Below, one piece after another: positions 474 to 63,184 of a stretch of DNA of 64,000 nt. The notes beneath the pieces are model-generated. The model was not told the DNA's origin and searched no databases. It saw only the letters and a program-made list of their open reading frames with translations. The position numbers and the translations under genes are program-made. This DNA comes from an uncultured Acidobacteriota bacterium (GTDB taxonomy: Bacteria > Acidobacteriota > Terriglobia > Bryobacterales > UBA6623): contig CAWFOP010000021.1 of assembly GCA_963817465.1 (NCBI GenBank), forward strand, positions 18,803 to 82,802, written 5' to 3'. How positions within the stretch are numbered: the stretch's first letter is position 1; every line of letters starts with the position of its first letter.

Positions 474-2108
474 ATGGGTTTTGTGCGAATTTTGGTCGCG
501 GCGACGGTGCTCGTCGCCGGCGCCTTCGCCCAGACATCCGAATACAGCGTCGATCCCAAGTTCGGCGCCCAGCGCCCGATCGACCGTATCCTCGAGCGCG
601 CCGATCCCGAACAAGACAACTGGGTCGGCGAGCGCGATTACGAAGAGATCAACGCCAAGCTCAAGACGATCGCGACCGGGATCAAGGACGGCAGCGGCGG
701 CTTCGAGCCGCTCAAATCCGAGCTCGAGCGCTTCGCCCACGTCAAGCTCGCCGAGTTCAAGATCGTCGGCAGCCGGCGTTCGGACGCCGCGGCGAAAGAC
801 GCCCAAATCGACATTAGGCTCGAGCTCGGCGGCGAAACCCGCGACGGCGAGCTGCTGTCTCTGCTCGGTCCGGTGGAGATGCGTTGGACCCGCGACGGCG
901 ACGACTGGACATTGGCCGAAACAAAGGTAGGAGAGCTGCGCGAAGTCGAGGCGCCGCGCTTCCAGTTCACCGAGATCACCGAGCAGGTTTTCGGCAAGAT
1001 TCCGTCCTTCCAGCGGCAGCTCGCCAAAGACACCAACTACTGGCGCGGAGCGCTCGATGCCGCCGTCGGCGTGCAGGTCTACGGGCATCACGGCGTGTCG
1101 CTCGGCGATTACAACGGCGACGGCCTCGACGACCTCTACGTCAGCCAGCCCGCAGGCCTGCCCAATCGTCTTTACCGCAACAACGGCGACGGCACGTTCT
1201 CGGACGTGAGCAAGGCGGCGGGCCTCGACGTGCTCGACGACACGTCGATGAGCCTGTTCGCGGACCTCGACAACGACGGCGATCAGGACATCATCCTCAT
1301 CGGCGCCGAGCCGCTGCTGTTCCGCAACGACGGCGGCAAGTTCACCTACGACCCGGCCGCCGGACTGCGTCCCGCGCCTGACAAGGCCGCCATGCTGACC
1401 GGCGCCTCACTGGCCGACTACGACAACGACGGCGACCTCGATCTCTACGTCTGCGCTTACGATTTCTGGCAAGCCGGCTCGGACTACGACGCCCCGACTC
1501 CGTACTACGACGCGACCAACGGCCCGCCGAACCTGCTGTTCCGCAACAAGGGCGACGGCACGTTCGAGGAGGTCACCGAAGCCGCCGGCCTGATGGAAGG
1601 CAACAACCGCTTCAGTTTCGACGCCTCCTGGGCCGACTACGACAACGACGGCGATCCCGACCTCTATGTCGCCAACGATTTCGGGCGCAACAACCTGTAC
1701 CGCAACAACGGCGACGGCACATTCCGCGAAGCCTCGAAGGAAGCGGGCCTGGAAGACTTGGCGGCGGGGATGTCGGCTTCGTGGGGCGACTACGACAATG
1801 ACGGAGATTTAGATCTCTACGTCTCGAACATGTGGTCGTCGGCGGGCCAGCGCATCACGTTCAACTCGCAGTTCGAGAACGTTGCCGGCTCGGCCGAGGT
1901 GCGCGAGAAGTTTCAGCGCCAAGCGCGCGGCAACTCCCTGTTTCGCAACAACGGCGACGGCACGTTCAGCGACATCAGCGAAGAGGCCGGCGTGACGATG
2001 GGACGCTGGGCCTGGGCGTCCGAGCTGGTCGATCTCGACAACGACGGGCAACTCGACATCTTCGTTCAGAACGGGTACATCACAGGCGACCGCCTGGACG
2101 ACCTTTGA
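474..2108 (+). CDS. FG-GAP/VCBS repeat protein (CRTAC1-like), N-terminal part; ORF ends at an in-frame TGA (2106-2108)
   Basis: Signal peptide MGFVRILVAATVLVAGAFAQ. At least 6 repeats of the DYDNDGDLDLYV / RNNGDGTF type. The reading frame continues after the TGA (see findings). Confidence 0.8.
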   Translation: MGFVRILVAATVLVAGAFAQTSEYSVDPKFGAQRPIDRILERADPEQDNWVGERDYEEINAKLKTIATGIKDGSGGFEPLKSELERFAHVKLAEFKIVGSRRSDAAAKDAQIDIRLELGGETRDGELLSLLGPVEMRWTRDGDDWTLAETKVGELREVEAPRFQFTEITEQVFGKIPSFQRQLAKDTNYWRGALDAAVGVQVYGHHGVSLGDYNGDGLDDLYVSQPAGLPNRLYRNNGDGTFSDVSKAAGLDVLDDTSMSLFADLDNDGDQDIILIGAEPLLFRNDGGKFTYDPAAGLRPAPDKAAMLTGASLADYDNDGDLDLYVCAYDFWQAGSDYDAPTPYYDATNGPPNLLFRNKGDGTFEEVTEAAGLMEGNNRFSFDASWADYDNDGDPDLYVANDFGRNNLYRNNGDGTFREASKEAGLEDLAAGMSASWGDYDNDGDLDLYVSNMWSSAGQRITFNSQFENVAGSAEVREKFQRQARGNSLFRNNGDGTFSDISEEAGVTMGRWAWASELVDLDNDGQLDIFVQNGYITGDRLDDL

Positions 2109-2119
2109 AGTTTCTTCTG

Positions 2120-2136
2120 GCGACAGGTCGTGTCGC
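2120..2136 (+). promoter_or_regulatory. SECIS-like hairpin 12 nt downstream of the in-frame UGA
   Basis: Stem GCGAC (2120-2124) / GUCGC (2132-2136) with loop AGGUCGU. The GGUC lies at +21..+24 from the U of UGA; from memory, the E. coli fdhF SECIS has GGUC at about +22..+25. Confidence 0.35.
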
Positions 2137-4016
2137 AAAGCCCCCAACACCAAAGCGGATCGAAAACCTACCAGGACGCCTGGCGGGCGATCAACATCCT
2201 GATCCGCTCCGACGGCTCTTGGAGCGGCCGCGAGCGCAACGTCTGCTACCGCAACGCGGGCGACGGCAAGTTTGTCGACGTTTCTTTCGTAAGCGGGCTC
2301 GACCTGGATACGGACGGCCGCTCGTTCGTGCCGATCGATCTCGACAACGACGGCGACCTCGACCTGATTCTGAAAAACCGCACGGGGACGCAACTGCGCG
2401 CCTTCCGCAACGACGCCCCGGCGGGCAAGCTCTTGACGGTCGAGCTGAGCGGCAAGCCGGACAGCGGCGTCGGCGCGCGAGTCACTCTCGAGACCGACCG
2501 CCGCAGGATGATCCGCGAGGTCGCTTCGAAGTCGGGGTACCTTTCGCAGGCGAGCCGCCTGGCGCGATTCGGCGTAGTCGAAGGCGAAACGCCTCGGATG
2601 ATCACCGTGCGTTGGCGCTCGGGTTCGGAGCAGCGCTTCGAAGACCCGCCCGCCCAAGGCGAGATGCGGATCGTCGAGGGCGAACAGACGTGGTCCGCGC
2701 CGCGCCGCGAGGCCTGGGAAGGCCCGCGCAAGAGCGAACCCGCGGACTCGCTCACCGAGACGGCCGGCGCTTGGCTCGCCGAGCCCATCCCGGCGCCGGA
2801 GTTCAGCCTCGCGACGGACAATGGCGCGTGGAGCCTTGCCGAGCACAAGGGCTCGAAGATCCTGGTCAACTTCTGGGCGACCTGGTGTCCGCCCTGCCGC
2901 AAGGAGCTGGCCGACTTCCGCGACCGCGCGAGCGATCTCGAGAAGGCCGGCGTCAAGCTGGCGGCGATCTCCGTCGACGACCCGGCCGACCGCGAGAAGG
3001 TGCGCAAGTTCGCCGCCGACCAGAAGCTCTCGTTCCCGGTATTGTTCGCGAACGACGCCACGGTCAACGCATACACCGTGCTCAACGAGCGGCTCTTCGA
3101 CCGCCGCCTGAACCTAGCCATCCCGACCAGCTTCCTGGTGGACGAGCAGGGCCGCATCGTCAAGACCTATCGCGGCGAGACCGCGGCCCAAGACGTTGTG
3201 GCCGACGCCGAGGCCGGCGCCGGCTCGGCCATTCCATTCGAGGGCCGGTGGGTCCGCTCCGGTCCGCGTCGCGACTTCGTCGAGCTCGCCACCGCTTTCG
3301 CCGAGCGCCGTCTCGTGCAGCCGGCGCGGGCTTTGTTCGAATACGCCTTGGCGCGCGGGGTCGAGACGCCCGAGCTATTCAACAATCTCGCCGGCTTGCT
3401 CAGTCTCCAGGGCGACTATAAAGACGCCGCGGACTACCTGCGCAAGTCGCTGACTCTGTCGCCGAACCAGCCGAACGCCAAGGTCAACCTGGCCTCGGCG
3501 CTGATCGAGCTGGGCTCGGCGGATCAAGCCGCGCCGCTGCTTTCAGCGGCTCTGGCGGCGCAACCCGACGACCCACAGGCGCTGGCCGTTCTCGCCGCCA
3601 TCCGCGCGGCGCAAAACGACGTCGCCGAGGCCGAGCGGCTTTACTCGCGCGCCATCGAGCAGCAGCCTGATAATCCCGATCTGCATGAGAGCCTAGCGGG
3701 CCTCTACGCCTCGACCGATCGTTTTCAGCAAGCGATCGATTCGTATGAGAAGGCGCGCACCCTTGGGTCGAATTCGGCGTTGATCAATTCGAACCTCGGC
3801 GTGCTCTATATGCAGCGCGGCATGCCCGCCAACGCGCTGCTGGCCTTTCAGCGCGCCGTCTCGGCCGAACCAGGCGACTACGGCGCCAACCTCAACCTGG
3901 CGCTCTACTACCTCAACGCCGGCGACGCCGAAAAAGCTCGCCAATACGCCGAAAAGGCTCGCTCCATCGACCCCGAGCGTACCGAAGCGAACCAAGTCTT
4001 CGAGCAGCTCGAGTAG
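2130..4016 (+). CDS. Continuation of the same protein: last FG-GAP repeat + ASPIC/UnbV domain + TlpA-like thioredoxin domain (WCPPC) + TPR repeats
   Basis: Same frame as 474..2108. Sequence is open from 2109 (SFFWRQVV...). Recognisable elements: RNAGDGKFVDVS..DLDNDGDLDL repeat, UnbV-like GARVTLETD...SGYLSQ, FWATWCPPCRKE, and multiple TPR units at the C-terminus. Confidence 0.75.
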   Translation: MSQSPQHQSGSKTYQDAWRAINILIRSDGSWSGRERNVCYRNAGDGKFVDVSFVSGLDLDTDGRSFVPIDLDNDGDLDLILKNRTGTQLRAFRNDAPAGKLLTVELSGKPDSGVGARVTLETDRRRMIREVASKSGYLSQASRLARFGVVEGETPRMITVRWRSGSEQRFEDPPAQGEMRIVEGEQTWSAPRREAWEGPRKSEPADSLTETAGAWLAEPIPAPEFSLATDNGAWSLAEHKGSKILVNFWATWCPPCRKELADFRDRASDLEKAGVKLAAISVDDPADREKVRKFAADQKLSFPVLFANDATVNAYTVLNERLFDRRLNLAIPTSFLVDEQGRIVKTYRGETAAQDVVADAEAGAGSAIPFEGRWVRSGPRRDFVELATAFAERRLVQPARALFEYALARGVETPELFNNLAGLLSLQGDYKDAADYLRKSLTLSPNQPNAKVNLASALIELGSADQAAPLLSAALAAQPDDPQALAVLAAIRAAQNDVAEAERLYSRAIEQQPDNPDLHESLAGLYASTDRFQQAIDSYEKARTLGSNSALINSNLGVLYMQRGMPANALLAFQRAVSAEPGDYGANLNLALYYLNAGDAEKARQYAEKARSIDPERTEANQVFEQLE

Positions 4017-5244: not shown

Positions 5245-5409
5245 GGTCGCGAGTCCTCCGACGGGCAGACGTTCAGCCCCAGCATTATAGGACTCAGCGC
5301 CGGCTCGAGCGCGTCATAGCGCGACATAGACCGTGTCGAAGCAAACCAAAGCCTTGGACCAACTGCGGTGGGCCGCCCACGCAGCGAAGTACAATCGGCG
5401 AAGGCTACG

Positions 5410-6925
5410 ATGACCCGACGACAGTTCCTCGAAAGCTCCGCCCTCGGCGCCGGTGCGCTCAGCGCGGCCTGCTCCTCCCCGACTGCTCCTTCCACGCCCG
5501 AAGAAAAGGTCCCCAACATCGTCCTGCTCATGGGCGACGATCACGCCTGGGACGAGACCGCCTATAACGGGCATCCCTACCTGAAAACGCCGGTCCTCGA
5601 CGACATGGCCGCCTCCGGCTTGCGCTTCGACCGCTTCTATTCCGCCTCGCCTGTGTGCTCGCCGACGCGGGGCAGCGTCCTCACCGGACGCCATCCGAAC
5701 CGCTACGGAACCTTCAGCGCCAACTGGTCCATCCGTCCCGAAGAGATCACCATCGCCGAATCTGCTCGGCGACGCCGGCTATGTCTGCGGCCACTTCGGC
5801 AAGTGGCATGTCGGTCCGGTCAAGCAAGGTTCGCCGACCAACCCGGGCGCGATGGGATTCGACGAGTGGCTCTCGCACGACAATTTTTTCGAGCTCAATC
5901 CGGTGCTCTCGCACAACGGCGGGCCGCCCGAGAAATTCGAGGGCGAAAGCTCGGAGGTCGTCGTCGACGCGGCCATCCGTTTCATCGACGACGCTGACAA
6001 GGCCGGCCGCCCGTATCTCGCCGTTGTCTGGTTCGGCTCGCCCCATGAGCCCTACAGCGGACTCGACAAGGATCTCGCGCTCTACGACGACGTGCCCGCG
6101 AAGTTCAACGACCGCAGCGTCCGGCTCACCAGCAACGAAACCGGCGGGACGGTCGAGCGGCCCCTAGGCGACGTTCTCCGCGAACGCTACGCCGAGATCA
6201 CCGCCATGGACCGCGCCATCGGCAAGCTGCGCTCGCACCTCGCCGAGCAAGGAGGCGGGCAAAACACGATCTTGTGGTACGTCGGCGACAACGGCATCCC
6301 CGCCAGCGGCCGCGCCACGACGCCTTTTCGCGGACAGAAGGGCGACGTGTATGAAGGCGGCATTCGCGTCCCCGGCGTTCTCGAATGGCCCAAACGCATC
6401 GCTCAGCACCGCGCCACGGCCGTCAACTGCGTTACCAGCGACATGCTCCCGACCCTGTGCGACATCGTCGGCGTCGCGGCGCCCGAACGCCCGCTCGACG
6501 GCATCAGCCTCGAGCCGCTCATCGCGGGCGACATGACCGAGCGCGCCACGCCGATCTGCTTCTGGAACTTCGAAACCCGCCGCGAGGCCCAAGCCAACCT
6601 CGAGCCCTACATCGATCCCAAGCTCCAAGAGGGCACGACTCCGCTCGTGAAGCTCATGAACGGCAAAGCGACGCGAAGCTTCGTCAACTACCGCCATCCC
6701 AAGATCACCGAAGACGACTACTCCGGCGACCGCGCCATCCTCGACAACCGCTACAAGCTCGTCATCACCGACGAGACTGAGGAACTTTTCGACATCCGCG
6801 CCGACCAGGCCGAAAAGAAGAATCTCATCGCCTCCAAGCCCGAAATCGCCGCAGATCTCGAGAAGCGACTGCGGGCTTGGCAGCAGTCCGTCCTCGAAAG
6901 TTTGACCGGCGCCGACTACAGCTAA
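5410..6925 (+). pseudogene. Arylsulfatase-family (formylglycine-dependent) sulfatase with a 1-nt frame disruption near 5761
   Basis: Tat signal [16 protein letters not shown]. Motifs [10 protein letters not shown] and [12 protein letters not shown] (C-x-P-x-R) are in frame 1. [19 protein letters not shown]...SPHEPY... is in frame 2, and the frames join if t5761 is removed. Confidence 0.75.
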
Positions 6926-36625: not shown

Positions 36626-37155
36626 CTGCCGTGGCGGACCGGCTCGAGGCCGCTCACATCCGCCTTGGATTCATCGGCGGGCGCGTTCAATTCGAGGTCG
36701 ACGTTCTTGCAGGTGCTGTCGCTGCAGGTCTGCCCTTTGACGGCGATCTTCGCGGGCCCGCCGGTTTTCTTGACCTTGGCGGCGAAAACAGCGTGATCCT
36801 CGAAGCCCCAGCTATACCAGCGCAGCTCGGGCCTCGAGAAATCCTTCGGCGGCGTCTGAAGCCACGGTCCCGCGGCTTCGAGGCCTGAGACGAGCTCGAT
36901 CTGCGTAGGGCCGTCGATGCCGAGCGATTGCTTGCCGGCCAGCGCTTCCTTCGCACGCAGCTCATTGTCCATTGCGAACGTGTGCCAGCCCTCCGAGATG
37001 TTCGCCTCGACGATCAAATAATCGCCGGCGAGCTTGGCGTGATACGTCAGGCATGTCTCGTTCATGTGATGGACCGCAGCCGGCGCGCCCCATTCCGCCG
37101 AGGCGATTCCCAAGGTCAGCAAACAAGCGAGGGCCGCAAAGCGCATATTCATCAT
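36622..37155 (-). CDS. Secreted DsbD-N-terminal-like (DsbC/DsbD alpha-type) domain protein
   Basis: Signal peptide, GWHTFA, and a late C-x-x-x-x-C (CSDSTC). The start overlaps the upstream stop as TAATG. Confidence 0.5.
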   Translation of the reverse strand: MMNMRFAALACLLTLGIASAEWGAPAAVHHMNETCLTYHAKLAGDYLIVEANISEGWHTFAMDNELRAKEALAGKQSLGIDGPTQIELVSGLEAAGPWLQTPPKDFSRPELRWYSWGFEDHAVFAAKVKKTGGPAKIAVKGQTCSDSTCKNVDLELNAPADESKADVSGLEPVRHGS

Positions 37156-38384
37156 TATTTCCGAAAGTTGACCTGTGTGGTGTGGACGTCGCTCTCCATG
37201 CGCTTGCCGTCACGAAGCAGCGTTAGCTTGACCACTTCGCCGGCCTTGACGTGCAGCTTGATATAGAGCTCGGGCGTATTGGCGATTGGGTCGGTCTCGA
37301 TCCCGTTGACGGCGAAAATGACGTCGCCTGCCTTGATGTCGTAGCTGCCGGCGGTGATGAAGTCGTCGACGCCGGTCACGCGCGCCGCGAATCCCGTCGG
37401 ATCGAGCTTCAGCTCGCTCTTCTCGCTTTCGGTCAGCGGATGCGAACGGAACGGCAGTCGCGGCTCCATGCTCCATTGGCGGTAGCCGAGATCGGTGAAC
37501 CACCAGCGCATCGGCAGCTCGACCGGGATCTCCATGGCTTTGCCGTCGCGGTCGACCGCCAGCCGCACGCCGTCGGCGTCGCGGTCGACCTTGTCGTAGT
37601 AGTACTGCAAGTCCGCGAAGGTGTAAACGGGCGTGCCGTTGAGTTGCGTGATCTTGTCCCCGGCCTGCATGCCCGCCGCCGCGACCGTGCCCGTGGCATT
37701 CTTCACGACCAAGCCTTTCGGCACGTCGAGCTCGATGCCGATCCTCTTGATGTCGGGCGAGCGGTAGAGGTCCTTGATCGGGTCGTAAACCCGGTCGAGG
37801 ATACGGTGCTGGTTCTGGTAGTCCATCGTCAAATGGCACTCGACGCACGCGCCGCGGCCGGTCGTGCGGGCCACCAGCAGCGGAAAGTCCGAAACATGGA
37901 TCGGCGCGGGCCGCGGCTTCTTGGGCAGCTCGCCGGCCTTGTACCGCTCATGCAGCTCGAGGCCCTGCTTCAGGGCGAGCTCCAGGCTGTTCAGGTCGAG
38001 ATAGGACCCGAAACCGGCGGAGTCGCGCCCGCCGTAACGCAGATAGATCTGCTCGTCGGCGTTGAGGGCGAAATAGTAGAGCGTGTTGTGGCGGTCCCAG
38101 TCGAACACGCCGAAATCCACGTCGTCCAACCGGATGACGCGCGCCAGCACGTACTGGCTCAACAACTTGCCGCGAGGCGAATCCGGATCTGACAGCACAA
38201 CCTGTGCGTCGAACTCTCGTCCGGCCCGTCAAGGCGAGCAGCGATACTCGAGGAAGATCGGCTTCCCGGTCTCGCGGGCCTCCTTGAGGGCGTCCGGGTA
38301 GTTGTCGTACCAGAACAGTTCGCCGGATTGGGCGGGCGCCAGCGCCGCGAGGGCGCAAGTCAAAATCGCGATACGAAGGGTCAT
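37155..38384 (-). CDS. Exported thioredoxin-fold + CxxCH + 2x PDZ protein; candidate selenoprotein (in-frame UGA at 38229-38231 in a C-S-P-U motif)
   Basis: The conventional ORF is 37155..38198 (GTG start, begins mid-domain). The same frame upstream reads MTLRIAILTCALAALAPAQSGELFWYDNYPDALKEARETGKPIFLEYRCSP[TGA]RAGREFDAQVV from ATG 38384. Downstream are CVECH and two PDZ domains (GMQAGDKI.., IKAGDVI..). Confidence 0.6.
38191..38210 (-). promoter_or_regulatory. SECIS-like hairpin 18 nt downstream of the in-frame UGA
   Basis: Minus-strand RNA GAC-GCAC-AGGUU-GUGC-(U)-GUC gives a 7-bp stem with one bulged U. The apical loop AGGUU has its GGU at +30..+32 from the U of UGA. Confidence 0.4.
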
Positions 38385-48848: not shown

Positions 48849-50336
48849 CTAAGAGATTCGATTCAGCAGATTCCGTTCGCCGCCCACATCCGTGAGGCGG
48901 AAATCGCGCCCCTGGAAAAAGTACGTGAGCTTTTCGTGATCGAGACCGAGCAGGCCCAAAATGGTCGCATGCAGGTCGTGCACGTGCACCGGATCGTCGA
49001 CCGCTCGCAGCCCGATTTCGTCCGTCGCGCCGAACACCTGGCCGCCCTTCACGCCGCCGCCGGCCATCCAGACCGAGAAGCCGTAGGGATTGTGGTCGCG
49101 GCCGTTGCGATTGCCGCTGCCGCTCTCGCCGCCGTCGGTAAACGGAGTGCGGCCGAAGTCGCCGCCCCAGACGATCAGCGTGCTGTCGAGAAGGCCTCTG
49201 CTCTTGAGGTCCGCCAGCAGACCGGCGATCGGCTTGTCGACCGAACCTGCCATCGCGCTGTGATTTTGGTTGATCTCGTTGTGAGCGTCCCAGCCGACCC
49301 CGGCGCCGCCTTTGCGTCCGCCGGAATAAATCTGAATGAACCGCACGCCGCGCTCGACCATCCGCCGCGCGCGCAAGCACTGTACGCCGAACTCGTGCGT
49401 ATGCTCTTCGTCGAGCCCGTAAAGCTCCTTGGTCGCCTCGGTTTCGCCGTCCAGATTCGCAAGCTCGGGCACAGAGGTCTGCATATCGAACGCCAGCTCG
49501 TACGATTGGATTCGCGCCGCGAGCTCGCTGTCGTCCGAACGCTTTTCGTAATGCGCGGTATTCAAGTTGTTCAGCACGTCCAGCAGTCGGCGCTGTTCCT
49601 TCGCCGTCATGCTCTCCGGCCGGTCGACGTTCAAGATCGGTGGACCGTCGCTGCGCAGCACCGTGCCCTGGTACATGGCGGGCAGGAATCCCGCGCCGAA
49701 CGCCGGCGTCCCGGCCTTGATCGGTCCGTCGAGCATCACCATGTAGGCGGGCAGGTCGGCGTTTTCAGTGCCGAGCCCATAGGTGACCCACGAGCCGGCG
49801 CTCGGCCGGCCCACGCGCGGCCATCCCGTGTTCATCCAATTTTGCCCGGTGACGTGCGTGAAGCCGTCGTGGTAAAGCGACCGCACCACGGCCAGGTCGT
49901 CCGCGTGCTGCGCGACGTTTTCAAACAGATCTGAAATCTCGATGCCCGACTGACCGCGCTTCTTGAACGTCCGCGGCGAGCCCAGCAGCGGGACTTTCTC
50001 CATCTTGGTGAACTGAAAATCCACCTTCCCGAAGCTCTGCGGCACGGGCTTGCCGTCGAGCTCGTTCAAGATGGGCTTGGGATCGAACGTATCGATGTGG
50101 CTCGGCCCGCCGTGCATGAACAAGAAGATCACGCTGGTGGCCTTGGCAGGGAAGTGCGGCTTGTGCGGCGCCAGCGGATTCGACGAGGCGGGAGCGGCGA
50201 ACGCCGAGTCTTGGCTGAGCATCGCGGCCGCCGCCAAAGCGCCGAACCCGAGCCCGGACTTCGCTAGAAACTCACGCCGCGAGCCGATTTGCTCATCCCT
50301 TCCGCAAAACTGAGAAGTCCAATCTCTTCCGTTCAT
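48849..50336 (-). CDS. DUF1501 protein (sulfatase-fold, Tat signal)
   Basis: SRREFLAKSGLGFGALAAAAM, ...FLFMHGGPSHIDTFDPKP..., ...WD.H.... and a C-terminal GRDH region. It sits next to a DUF1553 gene, the usual pairing. Confidence 0.85.
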   Translation of the reverse strand: MNGRDWTSQFCGRDEQIGSRREFLAKSGLGFGALAAAAMLSQDSAFAAPASSNPLAPHKPHFPAKATSVIFLFMHGGPSHIDTFDPKPILNELDGKPVPQSFGKVDFQFTKMEKVPLLGSPRTFKKRGQSGIEISDLFENVAQHADDLAVVRSLYHDGFTHVTGQNWMNTGWPRVGRPSAGSWVTYGLGTENADLPAYMVMLDGPIKAGTPAFGAGFLPAMYQGTVLRSDGPPILNVDRPESMTAKEQRRLLDVLNNLNTAHYEKRSDDSELAARIQSYELAFDMQTSVPELANLDGETEATKELYGLDEEHTHEFGVQCLRARRMVERGVRFIQIYSGGRKGGAGVGWDAHNEINQNHSAMAGSVDKPIAGLLADLKSRGLLDSTLIVWGGDFGRTPFTDGGESGSGNRNGRDHNPYGFSVWMAGGGVKGGQVFGATDEIGLRAVDDPVHVHDLHATILGLLGLDHEKLTYFFQGRDFRLTDVGGERNLLNRIS

Positions 50337-60702: not shown

Positions 60703-62966
60703 GACGCCCCCTGTCAATCTCGAACGCCGCCAACGCGGCTTGCCCCAGGCACACGCCGCCGTCGTTGGGCGGAACCTGCGAGTTGGTCCAAACTTCGACG
60801 CCCTGGTAGGGCAGCAGGTTCGCGAGATCCTCGAGCAACAGCTCGTTCTGGAACACTCCGCCCGACAGCACGCAGACGTCAGTGCCGCGTTCGCCGCACA
60901 GCCGTAGGATCGCCGTCGCCGTTCCTTCGGCGAGTCCCCGTTGAAACGCTCTCGCGATCTGCGCCGGCTTGCGACCCGCGAGGCGATCGCGAATCACGCT
61001 CTCGAGCAGCGGGCGAAAATCCAACACGCCGTCGCGCACGGGGAACGGATAGGCGTCGGCGAAGCGCGCGCCGCGGGCGGTCTGCTCGAGCCAAATCGCC
61101 GCCTGGCCCTCAAAGGTCACCTGGCGCGTAAACCCGAGCAGCGCGGCCGCGGCGTCGAACAGCCGGCCGACCGAAGTCGTCTCGAAAGGTCCGGACTCCC
61201 GCATCGAGCATCCGTCGCGCTTCGATGTACCGCTTCGAGAAGGCGAACGGCTCGGCGCAAAGATCCGGCAACGAGTCCAACTGCGAAACGAAACCGGCCG
61301 CCGACTGCACGGGGAACTTAGCCGCGGCGTCGCCGCCCGGCAGCATCGCCGGACGCAAGTGCAGCAGCCGCTCGAACCCATCGCGTAGGCTGCCGCCGAA
61401 AAACTCGCCGCCCCAGATCGTCCCGTCGTCGCCGTAGCCCGTGCCGTCAAAGGCCACGCCGATCACGTGCTGATCCCACGCTCGGCGTTCAGCCAACACC
61501 GACGCCACGTGCGCGCGGTGGTGTTGGACCGCGAACCGCTCGCGGCAATCGATCCCCTGAGCTTCCAGCGTCGAGGCGTATTGCGGGTGCAGGTCATACG
61601 CGACGATCAAGTCCGCGGGGGAGACCGCATACATTGACGTCAAGTCGCGGACCGTCTCGCGGAACGCTTGGCGGCACTGGTGATGGTCGAGGTCGCCGAT
61701 ATGCTGGCTGACGAAAACCTGTCCGTCGACCGCCAGCGCTATCGCGTTCTTGAGATCCGCGCCAACGCCCAAGATCGGCGGCGCGTCGAACGGCAATGTC
61801 GTCACCGCGCCCGGCGCATAGCCGCGCGAGCGTCGCAGCACCGCGGGGCCGAAAGCGCCGACGCGCGCCACCGAGTCGTCGACTCTCCTGACGATCGGCC
61901 GCTCGCCCAGCAAGAAGGCGTCCGCGATGCCGTCGAGTCGCTCCAAAGCGTCCGCGTCTTGGTAGGCGATCGGCTCGCTCGAGCGATTGGCGCTCGTCAT
62001 CACCAGCAGGTCCGGGGCGCCTGCGGCAAACAGCATGTGGTGCAGCGGCGTATAGGGCAGCATCACGCCAAGGTCGCGATTGTCCGGTGCGACGCCGGGC
62101 AACTCGACTTTCGCGGGGGCGATCACAATCGGCCGGGCGGGGGACTGCAATAACTCCTCCGCCGCCGGCGGCAGCGCGACAATCCCGCGCGCCATCTCCA
62201 AATCGCGCGCCATCACCGCAAAAGGCCGCTCCTTGCGGAACTTGCGCTCGCGCAACGCCGCGACCGCTTTCGCGCTGCGCGCGTCGCAAGCCAGGTGGTA
62301 GCCGCCGAGCCCTTTGATCGCGACGATTTTTCCCGCCTCGAGCAAGGCCGCGGTGCGCGTCACGCATTCCGCGTCTCCCAGCACAAGCTGTCGACCGACA
62401 CGCAATTCCAAGTGCGGCCCGCAAGCCGGACAAGCCGTCGGCTGCGCATGGAAGCGCCGATCCTCCGGGTCGCGGTACTCGTGCTCGCAAGCCGCGTCGA
62501 GCGGCCACGCCTTCATCGACGTATTCGCCCTGTCATAGGGCAGCCGCTCGATCACGCTGTAGCGCGGCCCGCAGTGCGTGCAATTGATATACGGGTACAG
62601 AAACCGCGAATCCTGCGAGTCGAACAACTCACGCAGGCAGTCGTCGCAAACCGGCAGGTCGGGGGATATGCGCGCGGTGGGCGCAGCGTCGCTGCGGCTC
62701 TTGCGGATGACGAAATCCGCCAAGCCGGTCGGCTCGGCCTCGTCCACTTGGATCGAGGCGATGTGCGACGCGGCGGGCGCCTCGACCTCGAGGCCGCGCA
62801 AGAAAGCTTCGAGCGCCGGCGCGGCGCCCTCCACATACACTTCGAGCCCTTCGCCTTCGTTGAGCGCCCAGCCGCTGAGCGCGTTCGCGCGCGCCAGCCG
62901 ATAAACAAAGGGCCGGAACCCGACCCCCTGCACCACGCCGCGCACATGAATGGACCGGGCCGTCAT
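60695..62966 (-). pseudogene. hypF: [NiFe]-hydrogenase maturation carbamoyltransferase HypF, interrupted by a 1-nt frame shift near 61193-61196
   Basis: The acylphosphatase domain (VQGVGFRPFV), two CxxC-x18-CxxC zinc fingers, the YrdC-like domain and the start of the Kae1-like domain are in one frame (62966..~61196). The C-terminal ...FETTSVGRLFDAAAALLGF...GGVFQN... is in another frame (to 60695). Total length is 2272 nt, i.e. 757 codons plus 1 nt. Confidence 0.8.
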
Positions 62967-63184
62967 ACGACGCACATCCTGCCTTGCCAACCGGATTGCA
63001 GCACGCGGCCGTCGCGCATCAGCACCGGCACGCCGCGCTGTCCGCCCGTCGCCCGGCGAAGGCGCTCCAGAGCCGCCGTGTCGTCTTCCACGTCGTACTC
63101 GACGAACGCTTCGCCCTTCCACTCCAGCTCTTCGCGCATCTCGCTGGTGTAAGGGCAAGATTTCGAGCCGTAAAGCTCAAGCAT
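62963..63184 (-). CDS. Small glutaredoxin/NrdH-like protein ending in C-V-V-stop, translationally coupled to hypF
   Basis: 73 aa: LELYGSKSCPYT...VPVLMRDGRVLQSGWQGRMCVV. CPYT replaces CPYC. Its stop overlaps the hypF ATG as ATGA, and its start overlaps the upstream SIS gene by 8 nt. Confidence 0.65.
   Translation of the reverse strand: MLELYGSKSCPYTSEMREELEWKGEAFVEYDVEDDTAALERLRRATGGQRGVPVLMRDGRVLQSGWQGRMCVV

What the first reader, a model, noticed from the sequence alone, without database searches (positions are those of the whole stretch)
474..4016. Single in-frame UGA (2106-2108) joins two ORFs into one 1180-residue FG-GAP/ASPIC + TlpA-thioredoxin + TPR protein; a GGUC hairpin follows at fdhF-like spacing
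ORFs 474..2108 and 2130..4016 are in the same frame and are separated only by TGA 2106-2108. The sequence right after the stop (SFFWRQVVSQSP...RNAGDGKFVDVS..DLDNDGDLDL) continues the FG-GAP repeat series and supplies the ASPIC/UnbV domain that normally terminates such repeat proteins. This makes it one protein split by one codon, not two genes. Downstream of the UGA, GCGAC-AGGUCGU-GUCGC (2120-2136) places a GGUC loop at +21..+24. From memory, the E. coli fdhF SECIS has GGUC at about +22..+25. Together with the C-S-P-U case at 38229, this suggests UGA recoding in this organism. It is weaker than the other case for two reasons. The UGA is not in a recognisable redox motif (context DDL-U-SFFW). 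The 5-bp stem lies in codons for a conserved-looking WRQVV peptide, so it could be coincidental.
Basis: partly seen in the sequence, partly recalled or inferred. Interest (0 to 1): 0.65.

Follow-up and report, generated by a model that had tools for sequence, protein, structure and literature searches.

The report
New selenocysteine protein with beta-propeller
The single in-frame TGA is most likely a selenocysteine codon with its own RNA insertion hairpin, conserved in 31 other bacterial species, so this large exported CRTAC1-like propeller/thioredoxin/TPR protein appears to belong to a selenoprotein family that is not in current catalogues.

Summary
ORFs 474-2108 and 2130-4016 are one frame interrupted only by TGA 2106-2108. 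Read through, they give a 1180-residue protein: signal peptide, FG-GAP propeller, UnbV/ASPIC, TlpA-like thioredoxin (CPPC) and TPR.

- Among 80 species-representative homologous loci, 31 carry a stop at exactly this column. It is always TGA, and the frame stays open for another 420-770 conserved codons.
- All 32 TGA genes have a 6-bp/5-nt-loop hairpin (GCGRCA-GGUCG-UGYCGC) at +15..+31. It is 99.5% paired, with two compensatory pair changes and frozen synonymous sites.
- In 41 non-TGA homologues that encode the same WRQVV peptide, the same columns pair only 50%.
- The hairpin meets all four published bacterial SECIS criteria.
- The window also encodes a known selenoprotein family (Trx7/PDZ, NF041199) with its own in-frame TGA.

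Two features are unusual. No homologue has Cys at the column (Ala/Ser/Gly/Asn/Asp/Glu/Tyr instead). Sec also co-occurs with an intact CxxC in the fused thioredoxin domain (30/30 against 3/36) and with a Cys at 590/591 (26/30 against 1/36), which suggests an internal redox relay.

The family is absent from a 2026 catalogue of 119 prokaryotic selenoprotein families and from NCBIfam. Selenium incorporation and function are untested.

The parts
474..4016 (+). Complete selenoprotein gene: 1180 codons including Sec545, terminal stop TAG 4014-4016
   Evidence: One frame with a single internal TGA. The domain series continues across the TGA. In 27 of 32 TGA orthologues the frame runs to a terminal stop after the TGA; counting loci cut by a contig end, 26-770 codons are visible, 419-770 in all but the shortest locus.
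474..533 (+). Predicted N-terminal signal peptide (MGFVRILVAATVLVAGAFAQ), so an exported protein
   Evidence: Read directly from the translation: a basic residue, a hydrophobic core and AFA-Q. This is inference; no predictor was run.
1071..2393 (+). FG-GAP beta-propeller region (about residues 200-640). The Sec lies in a helical insertion between the last two blades.
   Evidence: Pfam FG-GAP_3 at 1.2e-52, six stretches. An AlphaFold model of the Ala-type homologue P0001 (pLDDT 92.6) places the Sec column (A338) at the N-terminus of helix 336-344.
2106..2108 (+). UGA codon read as selenocysteine (residue 545), context DDL-U-SFFWRQVV
   Evidence: TGA in 32 of 32 genes that have a stop at this column, never TAA or TAG. 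Neighbouring genes use TGA 49% of the time, and the true terminal stops of these same genes are TGA 14, TAG 8, TAA 5.
2120..2136 (+). Bacterial SECIS-type hairpin: stem 2120-2125 with 2131-2136, apical loop GGUCG at 2126-2130, 11 nt after the UGA
   Evidence: -7.9 kcal/mol with 0 of 200 shuffles as stable. 99.5% of cells are paired across 32 genes, with compensatory changes at two pairs, against 50.4% in 41 non-TGA homologues. It meets the four criteria of the bSECIS model in PMC13188914.
2244..2246 (+). Cys591 (ERNVCYRN), a candidate resolving cysteine
   Evidence: A Cys is present at 590 or 591 in 26 of 30 Sec-type genes against 1 of 36 non-Sec homologues, and is absent from the Asn/Asp/Glu-type relatives. 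Its role is inferred.
2466..2657 (+). UnbV/ASPIC domain (residues 665-728)
   Evidence: Pfam PF07593, 5.4e-13.
2790..3197 (+). TlpA/ResA-like thioredoxin domain (residues 773-908) with W-C805-P-P-C808 (nt 2886-2897)
   Evidence: Pfam AhpC-TSA 6.7e-26 and Redoxin 2.2e-21. NCBIfam matches to ResA, StoA and TlpA are all below their cut-offs. The CxxC is intact in 30 of 30 Sec-type genes against 3 of 36 non-Sec homologues.
3318..3983 (+). C-terminal TPR repeats (about residues 949-1170)
   Evidence: Several Pfam TPR families at 1e-23 to 1e-13.
37155..38384 (-). Context: a second selenoprotein gene in the window, Trx7/PDZ family, motif EYRCSP-U, with TGA at 38231..38229
   Evidence: Read through, it matches NCBIfam NF041199 'Trx7/PDZ domain-containing (seleno)protein' at 391.8 bits (cut-off 300). 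A GCAC-AGGUU-GUGC hairpin can be drawn by eye 25 nt downstream; the MFE fold of this stretch pairs these bases differently and is no more stable than shuffles (z -0.76).

Best explanation
Window 474-4016 is one gene for an exported 1180-residue selenoprotein.

Inferred from sequence and comparison: UGA 2106-2108 is decoded as selenocysteine by the standard bacterial route. SelB carrying Sec-tRNA(Sec) is recruited by the 17-nt hairpin that starts 11 nt downstream (2120-2136, loop GGUCG).

The product is a CRTAC1/ASPIC-type FG-GAP propeller. Sec545 sits at the N-terminus of a short helix in an insertion between the last two blades. The propeller is fused to a TlpA-like thioredoxin domain (C805-P-P-C808) and to TPR repeats.

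More weakly inferred: Sec545 is the reactive centre of an extracytoplasmic oxidoreductase. After it is oxidised by a still unknown substrate, it would be recycled through Cys590/591 and/or the fused CxxC domain. That domain would in turn be re-reduced by a membrane DsbD/CcdA-type electron shuttle, as TlpA-like proteins are.

Homologues without Sec carry Ala, Ser, Gly, Asn, Asp or Glu at the column and a degenerate thioredoxin motif, so they would be redox-dead versions of the same scaffold.
For: Recoding:
- The stop at this column is conserved in 31 of 80 species-representative loci plus the window, spanning Bryobacterales and other Acidobacteriota, Planctomycetota and Verrucomicrobiota. It is always TGA.
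- 28 of the 120 closest protein clusters in public databases end exactly at ...DDL or ...HDL, and others start at MSQSP. Gene callers are therefore cutting many relatives at this codon.
- The frame stays open and conserved after the TGA.
- The codons between the TGA and the GTG at 2130 show amino-acid-level selection. Ser is coded AGT 19, AGC 12, TCT 1; Phe is coded TTC or TTT; the next position varies between Phe, Tyr and Leu.
- That GTG is GCG in 3 loci, so it is not a conserved start.

Hairpin:
- 185 of 186 cells are paired. Pair 24:34 changes G.U/A-U to C-G in 2 loci, and pair 26:32 changes A-U to G-C in 3 loci, the latter together with a change of peptide from QVV to RVA or RGA. None of 500 shuffles reaches the observed covariation score.
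- Synonymous sites inside the stem are frozen: Val is GTG 29 of 29 and Ser is TCG 29 of 29. Flanking Leu, Ser and Pro codons vary freely.
- The same columns pair only 50.4% in 41 non-TGA homologues that encode WRQVV.
- The published bSECIS criteria are all met: loop of 3-9 nt, stem of 4-16 bp, G in the first two loop positions followed by G or U, 16-37 nt between UGA and the loop, and MFE at or below -7.5 kcal/mol.

Sec use in this organism:
- A known-family selenoprotein gene with an in-frame TGA lies in the same window.
- Selenoproteins are documented in Acidobacteria (PMC1794560; PMC12013277).

Redox relay:
- The CxxC is intact in 30 of 30 Sec-type genes against 3 of 36 non-Sec homologues. 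A Cys at 590/591 occurs in 26 of 30 against 1 of 36.
- The more distant Asn/Asp/Glu-type homologues lack both.
- The Sec column is at the N-terminus of a helix in a confident model.
Against: - No Cys is found at the column in about 150 homologues with a sense codon. A scan of 241 million metagenome records for C-S-F-F-W-R-Q-V gave 79 chance hits and no homologue. Nearly all known selenoproteins have Cys homologues (PMC13188914). The column tolerates many residues, so Sec might not be catalytic.
- No selA, selB, selD or tRNA-Sec was seen in the 20 window ORFs checked or in the flanks of the loci. The whole genome could not be searched.
- Rfam gave no match, although it has no general model for bacterial SECIS elements.
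- The correlation between Sec and CxxC rests on few independent evolutionary events. The Terriglobales non-Sec group is a single clade, and L076, L079 and L080 keep CxxC without Sec.
- The enriched Cys sits at either of two adjacent strand positions.
- There is no proteomic or 75Se evidence.
Confidence: 0.82

Rival explanations
1. The TGA is a genuine stop. The family has undergone a conserved gene fission into a 544-residue propeller fragment and a separately translated C-terminal protein. That protein would be made by reinitiation at GUG 2130 or coupled translation, with the hairpin modulating the restart.
For: Gene callers annotate two ORFs, and a GTG lies 21 nt downstream in 29 of 32 loci. 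No Cys homologue exists.
Against: - The seven codons between the TGA and the GTG are conserved as protein with synonymous variation, including a switch of Ser codon family.
- The GTG is replaced by GCG in 3 loci.
- The only purine-rich stretch (AGG) lies 2 nt from the GTG, too close for a ribosome-binding site (sequence).
- The stop is TGA in 32 of 32 genes, across 23 lineages below 60% identity, where the background TGA frequency is 0.49.
- The cut would fall inside the propeller, before its last blade.
- The hairpin matches SECIS geometry exactly.
Confidence: 0.05
2. The UGA is read through without selenocysteine. A near-cognate tRNA inserts Trp, Cys or Arg, and the downstream hairpin acts as a generic read-through stimulator. 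The result would be a mixture of truncated and full-length protein.
For: The column tolerates many residues in homologues. The sel genes are not shown for this genome.
Against: - The position of the hairpin (+15..+31), its 17-nt size and its G-G/U loop are those of SelB-binding elements (the comparison with fdhF is from memory).
- If any amino acid would do, a sense codon would be expected to replace TGA often within the clade. Instead TGA is retained in 32 of 32 Sec-clade genes.
- Sec co-occurs with an intact CxxC.
- A bona fide selenoprotein family is encoded in the same window.
Confidence: 0.08
3. Sec is inserted, but mainly as a selenium-dependent expression switch rather than as a catalytic residue. 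Full-length protein would be made only when selenium is available.
For: The position is variable among homologues and never Cys. It lies in a surface insertion between blades, where model confidence is lower (pLDDT 76 for residues 331-340).
Against: Sec co-occurs with an intact CxxC and an extra Cys. Maintaining Sec and a SECIS in at least three phyla purely for regulation has no precedent known to me.
Confidence: 0.1
4. The TGA is a sequencing or assembly error, or the gene is a recent pseudogene in this genome.
For: The window does contain an apparent frameshift in a sulfatase gene near 5770-5800. Raw reads of this organism were not found.
Against: The same TGA is present in 31 independently assembled genomes and in many metagenome gene calls. 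Both halves remain under coding constraint (GC3 0.86 and 0.83).
Confidence: 0.01

Closest known systems
Bacterial selenoprotein genes with an in-ORF SECIS (archetype E. coli fdhF; bSECIS consensus model of Zhang and Gladyshev as summarised in PMC13188914)
   Same: An in-frame UGA is followed immediately by a short hairpin inside the coding sequence. The loop starts with G followed by G or U. There are 17 nt between the UGA and the loop, and the fold energy is -7.9 kcal/mol, so all model criteria are met. From memory, the fdhF minimal element is also a 17-nt stem-loop 11 nt after the UGA with a GGUC loop.
   Different: There is no bulged U. The protein family is new for Sec. No Cys-containing homologue exists at the Sec column. 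Sec is not in a UxxC, CxxU or other recognised motif.
CRTAC1/ASPIC family (FG-GAP propeller plus UnbV_ASPIC; human cartilage acidic protein 1, PDB 9etn)
   Same: Both have FG-GAP repeats with DxDxDG loops followed by the UnbV_ASPIC domain. A profile of the family matches 9etn at 4.3e-48. NCBI names relatives 'CRTAC1 family protein'.
   Different: The helical insertion that carries DL-U-SFFWRQVV does not align to human CRTAC1. The bacterial protein adds a thioredoxin domain and TPR repeats, and it contains Sec. The function of bacterial CRTAC1-like proteins is unknown.
TlpA/ResA-type extracytoplasmic thiol-disulfide oxidoreductases, including the Sec-containing 'UGC-containing TlpA family' and 'WAxxUGC' selenoproteins
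   Same: Residues 773-908 form a TlpA/ResA-like fold with WCPPC. The protein is predicted to be exported. These families are reductants in the cell envelope.
   Different: Here the thioredoxin domain has an ordinary CxxC, and the Sec lies about 260 residues upstream in another domain. All NCBIfam scores are far below the family cut-offs, for example WAxxUGC_long at 43 bits against 300.
Trx7/PDZ domain-containing selenoprotein (NCBIfam NF041199), encoded at 37155-38384 (-) in the same window
   Same: It is also a predicted exported protein with an in-frame UGA, and a GGU-loop hairpin can be drawn downstream of it by eye, though the MFE fold does not recover that hairpin. It is encoded in the same organism.
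   Different: It has a classical CxxU redox motif in a thioredoxin fold, and it is already catalogued.

Membership tests
Bacterial selenoprotein gene (Sec-UGA plus bSECIS) | An in-frame UGA is conserved at the same column in orthologues, with coding conservation on both sides | tested here: met
   TGA in 31 of 80 loci plus the window, never TAA or TAG. In 27 of 32 loci the frame runs to a terminal stop after the TGA; 419-770 codons are visible in all but one contig-truncated locus.
Bacterial selenoprotein gene (Sec-UGA plus bSECIS) | A hairpin downstream of the UGA meets the bSECIS model: loop 3-9 nt, stem 4-16 bp, G in the first two loop positions, 16-37 nt spacing, MFE at or below -7.5 kcal/mol | tested here: met
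   6 bp, loop GGUCG, 17 nt spacing, -7.9 kcal/mol. The criteria are from PMC13188914.
Bacterial selenoprotein gene (Sec-UGA plus bSECIS) | Homologues carry Cys at the Sec column | tested here: not met
   The column holds Ala 24, Ser 15, Gly 8 and Tyr 1 in the loci, and Asn, Asp, Glu, Ser, Ala, Gly or Met in the protein clusters. The metagenome scan for the Cys form found no homologue. This is usual for selenoproteins but is not a strict requirement.
Bacterial selenoprotein gene (Sec-UGA plus bSECIS) | The genome encodes selA, selB, selC (tRNA-Sec) and selD | tested here: inconclusive
   None was found among 20 window ORFs or by the tRNA scans. Only 64 kb of the genome is in hand. There is indirect support from a known-family selenoprotein gene with an in-frame TGA in the same window.
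Bacterial selenoprotein gene (Sec-UGA plus bSECIS) | Selenium is shown to be incorporated into the protein | not testable with these tools
   This needs 75Se labelling or mass spectrometry.
CRTAC1/ASPIC family | FG-GAP repeat propeller followed by a UnbV_ASPIC domain | tested here: met
   Pfam FG-GAP_3 at 176.8 bits and UnbV_ASPIC at 49.1 bits, both above their cut-offs. The family profile matches PDB 9etn at 4.3e-48.
TlpA/ResA-like thioredoxin-fold oxidoreductase (domain level) | Thioredoxin fold with a WCxxC active site | tested here: met
   AhpC-TSA at 91.1 bits and Redoxin at 76.6 bits, above their cut-offs, with the WCPPC motif. The NCBIfam equivalogs for ResA, TlpA and StoA are below their cut-offs, so it is not a member of those specific families.
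Catalogued prokaryotic selenoprotein families (119 in PMC13188914; NCBIfam selenoprotein models) | Match to a listed family or model | tested here: not met
   FG-GAP, CRTAC, ASPIC, VCBS, propeller and repeat each occur 0 times in the catalogue text and table. NCBIfam gives 0 families for the N-terminal half and only generic TPR and Trx matches below cut-off for the C-terminal half.
Rfam SECIS families | Covariance-model match | tested here: not met
   There is no match at the gathering score or at E up to 10 on 2080-2200. Rfam has no general model of bacterial SECIS elements, so this says little.

The most novel reading that the evidence does not exclude
Sec545 is an obligate catalytic residue that cysteine cannot replace. 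It would sit in a new kind of extracytoplasmic selenoenzyme built on a CRTAC1-type beta-propeller with its own thioredoxin recycling domain. Lineages that gave up Sec at this site did not switch to Cys. Instead they lost the whole redox relay, which gives the first functional handle on the large and uncharacterised bacterial CRTAC1/ASPIC family.
Probability: 0.3. Interest if true: 0.8.

Novelty: new member of a known kind. Interest (0 to 1): 0.66.

Why it matters
If confirmed, this adds a widespread selenoprotein family. It is found in soil and aquatic Bryobacterales, other Acidobacteriota, Planctomycetota and Verrucomicrobiota. Current annotation systematically splits it into two 'partial' or 'VCBS/FG-GAP' proteins.

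Three features set it apart. It is not a thioredoxin-fold or CxxU-type selenoprotein. It is predicted to be exported. It has no Cys-containing counterparts, which bears on the open question of why Sec is kept instead of Cys.

The co-occurrence of Sec with an intact fused CxxC domain also gives a testable redox hypothesis for bacterial CRTAC1-like proteins, whose function is unknown. On the practical side, the conserved motif D-L-TGA-AGY-TTY-TTY-TGG-CGR-CAG-GTC-GTG-TCG could be used to correct gene calls.

Tried and rejected
- Rfam, at the gathering threshold on the whole window and at E up to 10 on 2080-2200, gave no match.
- A 62-residue query with Cys at the column returned a single candidate. 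The word index needs longer queries, so one search was wasted.
- The exhaustive representative search with the 202 residues before the TGA was swamped by giant multi-repeat FG-GAP proteins. Only P0221 (545 aa, ending at the TGA column) was relevant.
- A first alignment was too diverse for the locus search. A trimmed one (A2) worked.
- The metagenome scan for the Cys variant gave 79 hits, all unrelated sequence.
The Ala-type homologue P0001 was modelled instead.
- The look-up of encoding contigs has no record of the window's N-terminal ORF.
- The public runs that share 31-mers with the region hold other organisms. Only FG-GAP motif fragments and, in a salt-marsh run, the TGA-plus-hairpin stretch were laid, so there are no reads of this genome.
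- Scans of the window and 31 loci found no tRNA-Sec.
- Pfam on 20 window ORFs found no selA, selB or selD.
- Gene neighbourhoods show no synteny specific to the Sec-type loci. Recurrent neighbours are a TonB-dependent-receptor-like OMP, a CRTAC1 paralogue, a TPR protein and LacI, mostly in the non-Sec Terriglobales.
- A window-wide scan for other coding-like ORF pairs joined by a TGA found only this one at the thresholds used.

Full report
**Observation.** The window holds ORF 474..2108 (ATG, 544 aa) and ORF 2130..4016 (GTG, 628 aa) in the same frame. Translating 474-4016 gives 1180 codons with one internal stop, TGA 2106-2108, in the context ...NGYITGDRLDDL*SFFWRQVVSQSP.... Pfam on the read-through protein finds six FG-GAP_3 stretches, UnbV_ASPIC (665-728), AhpC-TSA/Redoxin (773-908, motif WCPPC) and TPR repeats (about 949-1170). 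The N-terminus, MGFVRILVAATVLVAGAFAQ, looks like a signal peptide; this is read from the sequence, and no predictor was run. The hairpin at 2120-2136 folds as 6 bp with a 5-nt loop GGUCG. Its energy is -7.9 kcal/mol, and 0 of 200 shuffles fold as well.

**The stop is conserved, and it is always TGA.** A homology search with the 299 residues around the stop showed that 28 of the 120 best protein clusters (58-82% identical) end exactly at ...DDL...HDL or ...GDL. Others begin at MSQSP, which corresponds to the GTG at 2130. Gene callers are therefore cutting many relatives at the same codon. A scan of one genome per GTDB species returned 80 loci. At the column before [SG]FFWRQVV the codon is TGA in 31 loci plus the window, and never TAA or TAG. 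The record titles place these loci in Bryobacterales, other Acidobacteriota, Thermoanaerobaculia, Planctomycetota (including Phycisphaerae, Bythopirellula and Lacipirellulaceae) and Verrucomicrobiota (including Akkermansiaceae). After the TGA the frame stays open for 420-770 codons, the same length as in homologues without a stop. In the flanks of these loci, genes end in TGA 49%, TAG 33% and TAA 18% of the time. The true terminal stops of these same genes are TGA 14, TAG 8 and TAA 5. The TGA-bearing genes fall into 23 groups below 60% identity. A plain stop, a pseudogene or a sequencing error does not explain this pattern.

**The codons after the stop are translated.** Between the TGA and the GTG at 2130, Ser is coded AGT 19, AGC 12 and TCT 1, which includes a change of codon family. 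Phe is coded TTC or TTT, the next residue varies between Phe, Tyr and Leu, and Trp is invariant. The GTG itself is GCG in three loci, so it is not a conserved restart codon.

**The hairpin is a conserved RNA element specific to the TGA genes.**
- All 32 TGA genes have GCGRCA-(GGUCG, AGUUG, CGUUG or GGGCG)-UGYCGC at +15..+31 from the U of UGA.
- For that structure, 99.5% of cells form standard pairs. Two of the six pairs show changes on both sides: G.U/A-U to C-G in L012 and L065, and A-U to G-C in L029, L070 and L073. The second change alters the peptide from QVV to RVA or RGA while keeping the pair.
- None of 500 shuffles reaches the observed covariation score, and versions of the structure slid by 1 to 3 columns pair 12-67%.
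- In the 41 homologues with a sense codon, which encode the same WRQVV peptide, the same columns pair only 50.4%, with no compensatory change.
- Synonymous sites inside the stem are frozen: Val is GTG 29 of 29, Ser is TCG 29 of 29, and the first Val is only GTC or GTT. Flanking Leu, Ser and Pro codons vary freely.
- The element meets all four constraints of the published bacterial SECIS model. These are a loop of 3-9 nt, a stem of 4-16 bp, a G in the first two loop positions followed by G or U, 16-37 nt between the UGA and the loop (here 17), and MFE at or below -7.5 kcal/mol (PMC13188914; energy).
- From memory, the E. coli fdhF minimal element is also a 17-nt stem-loop that starts 11 nt after the UGA and has a GGUC loop.
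- Rfam has no match, but it has no general model for bacterial SECIS elements.

**Sec use in this organism.** On the minus strand, 38384..37155 encodes a protein with EYRCSP-TGA-RAG, the TGA lying at 38231..38229. Read through, it matches NCBIfam NF041199 'Trx7/PDZ domain-containing (seleno)protein' at 391.8 bits, against a cut-off of 300. A GCAC-AGGUU-GUGC hairpin can be drawn by eye 25 nt downstream; the MFE fold of this stretch pairs these bases differently and is no more stable than shuffles. This is a catalogued selenoprotein family. selA, selB, selD and tRNA-Sec were not found in the window, but only 64 kb of the genome is available. Selenoproteins are documented in Acidobacteria. The closest locus to the window's gene is a Bryobacterales MAG at 77% identity, so the window is probably from Bryobacterales. 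That assignment is inference.

**What occupies the column elsewhere.** Homologues with a sense codon have Ala (24), Ser (15), Gly (8) or Tyr (1) in the genome loci. The more distant protein clusters have Asn, Asp, Glu, Ser, Ala, Gly or Met. None has Cys. A scan of the metagenome collection for TGY-WSN-TTY-TTY-TGG-MGN-CAR-GT gave 79 hits, none of which is a homologue. This is unusual, because nearly all selenoproteins have more abundant Cys homologues (PMC13188914).

**Residues that travel with Sec.**
- In an alignment of 30 Sec-type and 36 non-Sec genes, the first Cys of the thioredoxin motif (C805) is present in 30 of 30 against 3 of 36.
- The Terriglobales homologues have motifs such as TAPLC or ASPAS. 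Only L076, L079 and L080 keep CxxC without Sec.
- A Cys at position 590 or 591 (ERNVCY or ERNCAY) is present in 26 of 30 against 1 of 36.
- The Asn/Asp/Glu-type relatives also lack both features; their thioredoxin-like domains read FWSAKSTG, FWTTESGG and similar.
- A rough neighbour-joining tree places the Terriglobales non-Sec clade inside a paraphyletic set of deep Sec-type lineages. The number of independent losses is therefore small, and the correlation is suggestive rather than proven.
- An AlphaFold model of the Ala-type homologue P0001 (pLDDT 92.6) puts the Sec column (A338) at the N-terminus of helix 336-344, in an insertion between the last two blades. It puts the Cys591 column (M384) in the first strand of the next blade.
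- This insertion does not align to human CRTAC1, PDB 9etn, which is otherwise the only solved relative.

**Mechanism.** The recoding signals are shown: a conserved TGA, a translated downstream frame and a SECIS-type hairpin with covariation. It is inferred that SelB-dependent insertion of Sec gives an exported 1180-residue selenoprotein. It is more weakly inferred that Sec545 is a redox centre recycled through Cys590/591 and/or the fused CxxC domain, and that this domain is recharged by a DsbD/CcdA-type system as TlpA-like proteins are. The substrate is unknown. Neighbouring genes give no specific lead. They include a TonB-dependent-receptor-like OMP, a CRTAC1 paralogue, a TPR protein and LacI, mostly in the non-Sec loci.

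**Novelty.** The 2026 catalogue of 119 prokaryotic selenoprotein families has no FG-GAP, CRTAC1, ASPIC, VCBS or propeller entry. The 2022 review and the deep-Sep paper do not mention one either. Full-text searches that combine selenoprotein or selenocysteine with FG-GAP, ASPIC, UnbV, CRTAC1 or VCBS return nothing relevant. NCBIfam has no model for the N-terminal half and only generic matches below cut-off for the C-terminal half. NCBI names truncated relatives 'VCBS repeat-containing protein' or 'FG-GAP repeat domain-containing protein, partial'. The recoding mechanism is the known one, and the protein family is new for Sec, so I rate this a new member of a known kind.

**Limits.** There are no reads of this organism, no coordinates from the model, no fold search, no whole-genome check for the sel genes, and no experimental evidence of selenium.

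Noticed in passing
window 37155-38384 (-), TGA at 38229-38231: A second selenoprotein gene. It encodes an exported Trx7/PDZ protein with motif EYRCSP-U, split into two ORFs by an in-frame TGA. It matches NCBIfam NF041199 at 391.8 bits (cut-off 300), and a GCAC-AGGUU-GUGC hairpin can be drawn 25 nt after the UGA, though the MFE fold does not recover it.
   Followed up: yes
window about 5400-6925 (+), shift near 5770-5800: A sulfatase gene appears frameshifted. The N-terminal part has a twin-arginine-like signal ([16 protein letters not shown]) and the CSPTR formylglycine motif in one frame. The rest ([16 protein letters not shown]..., Pfam Sulfatase positions 118-301) lies in the frame of ORF 5852-6925. 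It is either a pseudogene or an assembly indel.
   Followed up: partly
L043 6001-6642 and L045 6001-6642: The two loci are identical across the region compared, yet one record is labelled Bryobacterales and the other Candidatus Latescibacterota. This probably reflects a binning or labelling problem, so Latescibacterota should not be counted as a separate phylum for this gene.
   Followed up: no
L007-L071 (Terriglobales-type loci), thioredoxin-like domain about 260 codons after the Sec column: The non-Sec homologues keep a thioredoxin-like domain whose CxxC has decayed to motifs such as TAPLC, ASPAS or TATAS. They also carry a clade-specific Cys at window-equivalent position 384 (33 of 36) that the Sec-type genes lack (0 of 30).
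   Followed up: partly
run X4 (salt marsh metagenome) laid on window 2096-2138: Short contigs from another organism cover only the DL-TGA-SFFWRQVVS stretch, with 3-4 mismatches. The TGA-plus-hairpin segment is thus the most conserved stretch of the gene at the nucleotide level across organisms.
   Followed up: no
window 61113-63158 (-) and 48852-50336 (-): The first is a HypF carbamoyltransferase (hydrogenase maturation). The second is a DUF1501 protein next to two very large ORFs. Both are typical of large soil Acidobacteriota or Planctomycetota genomes and are unrelated to the finding.
   Followed up: no
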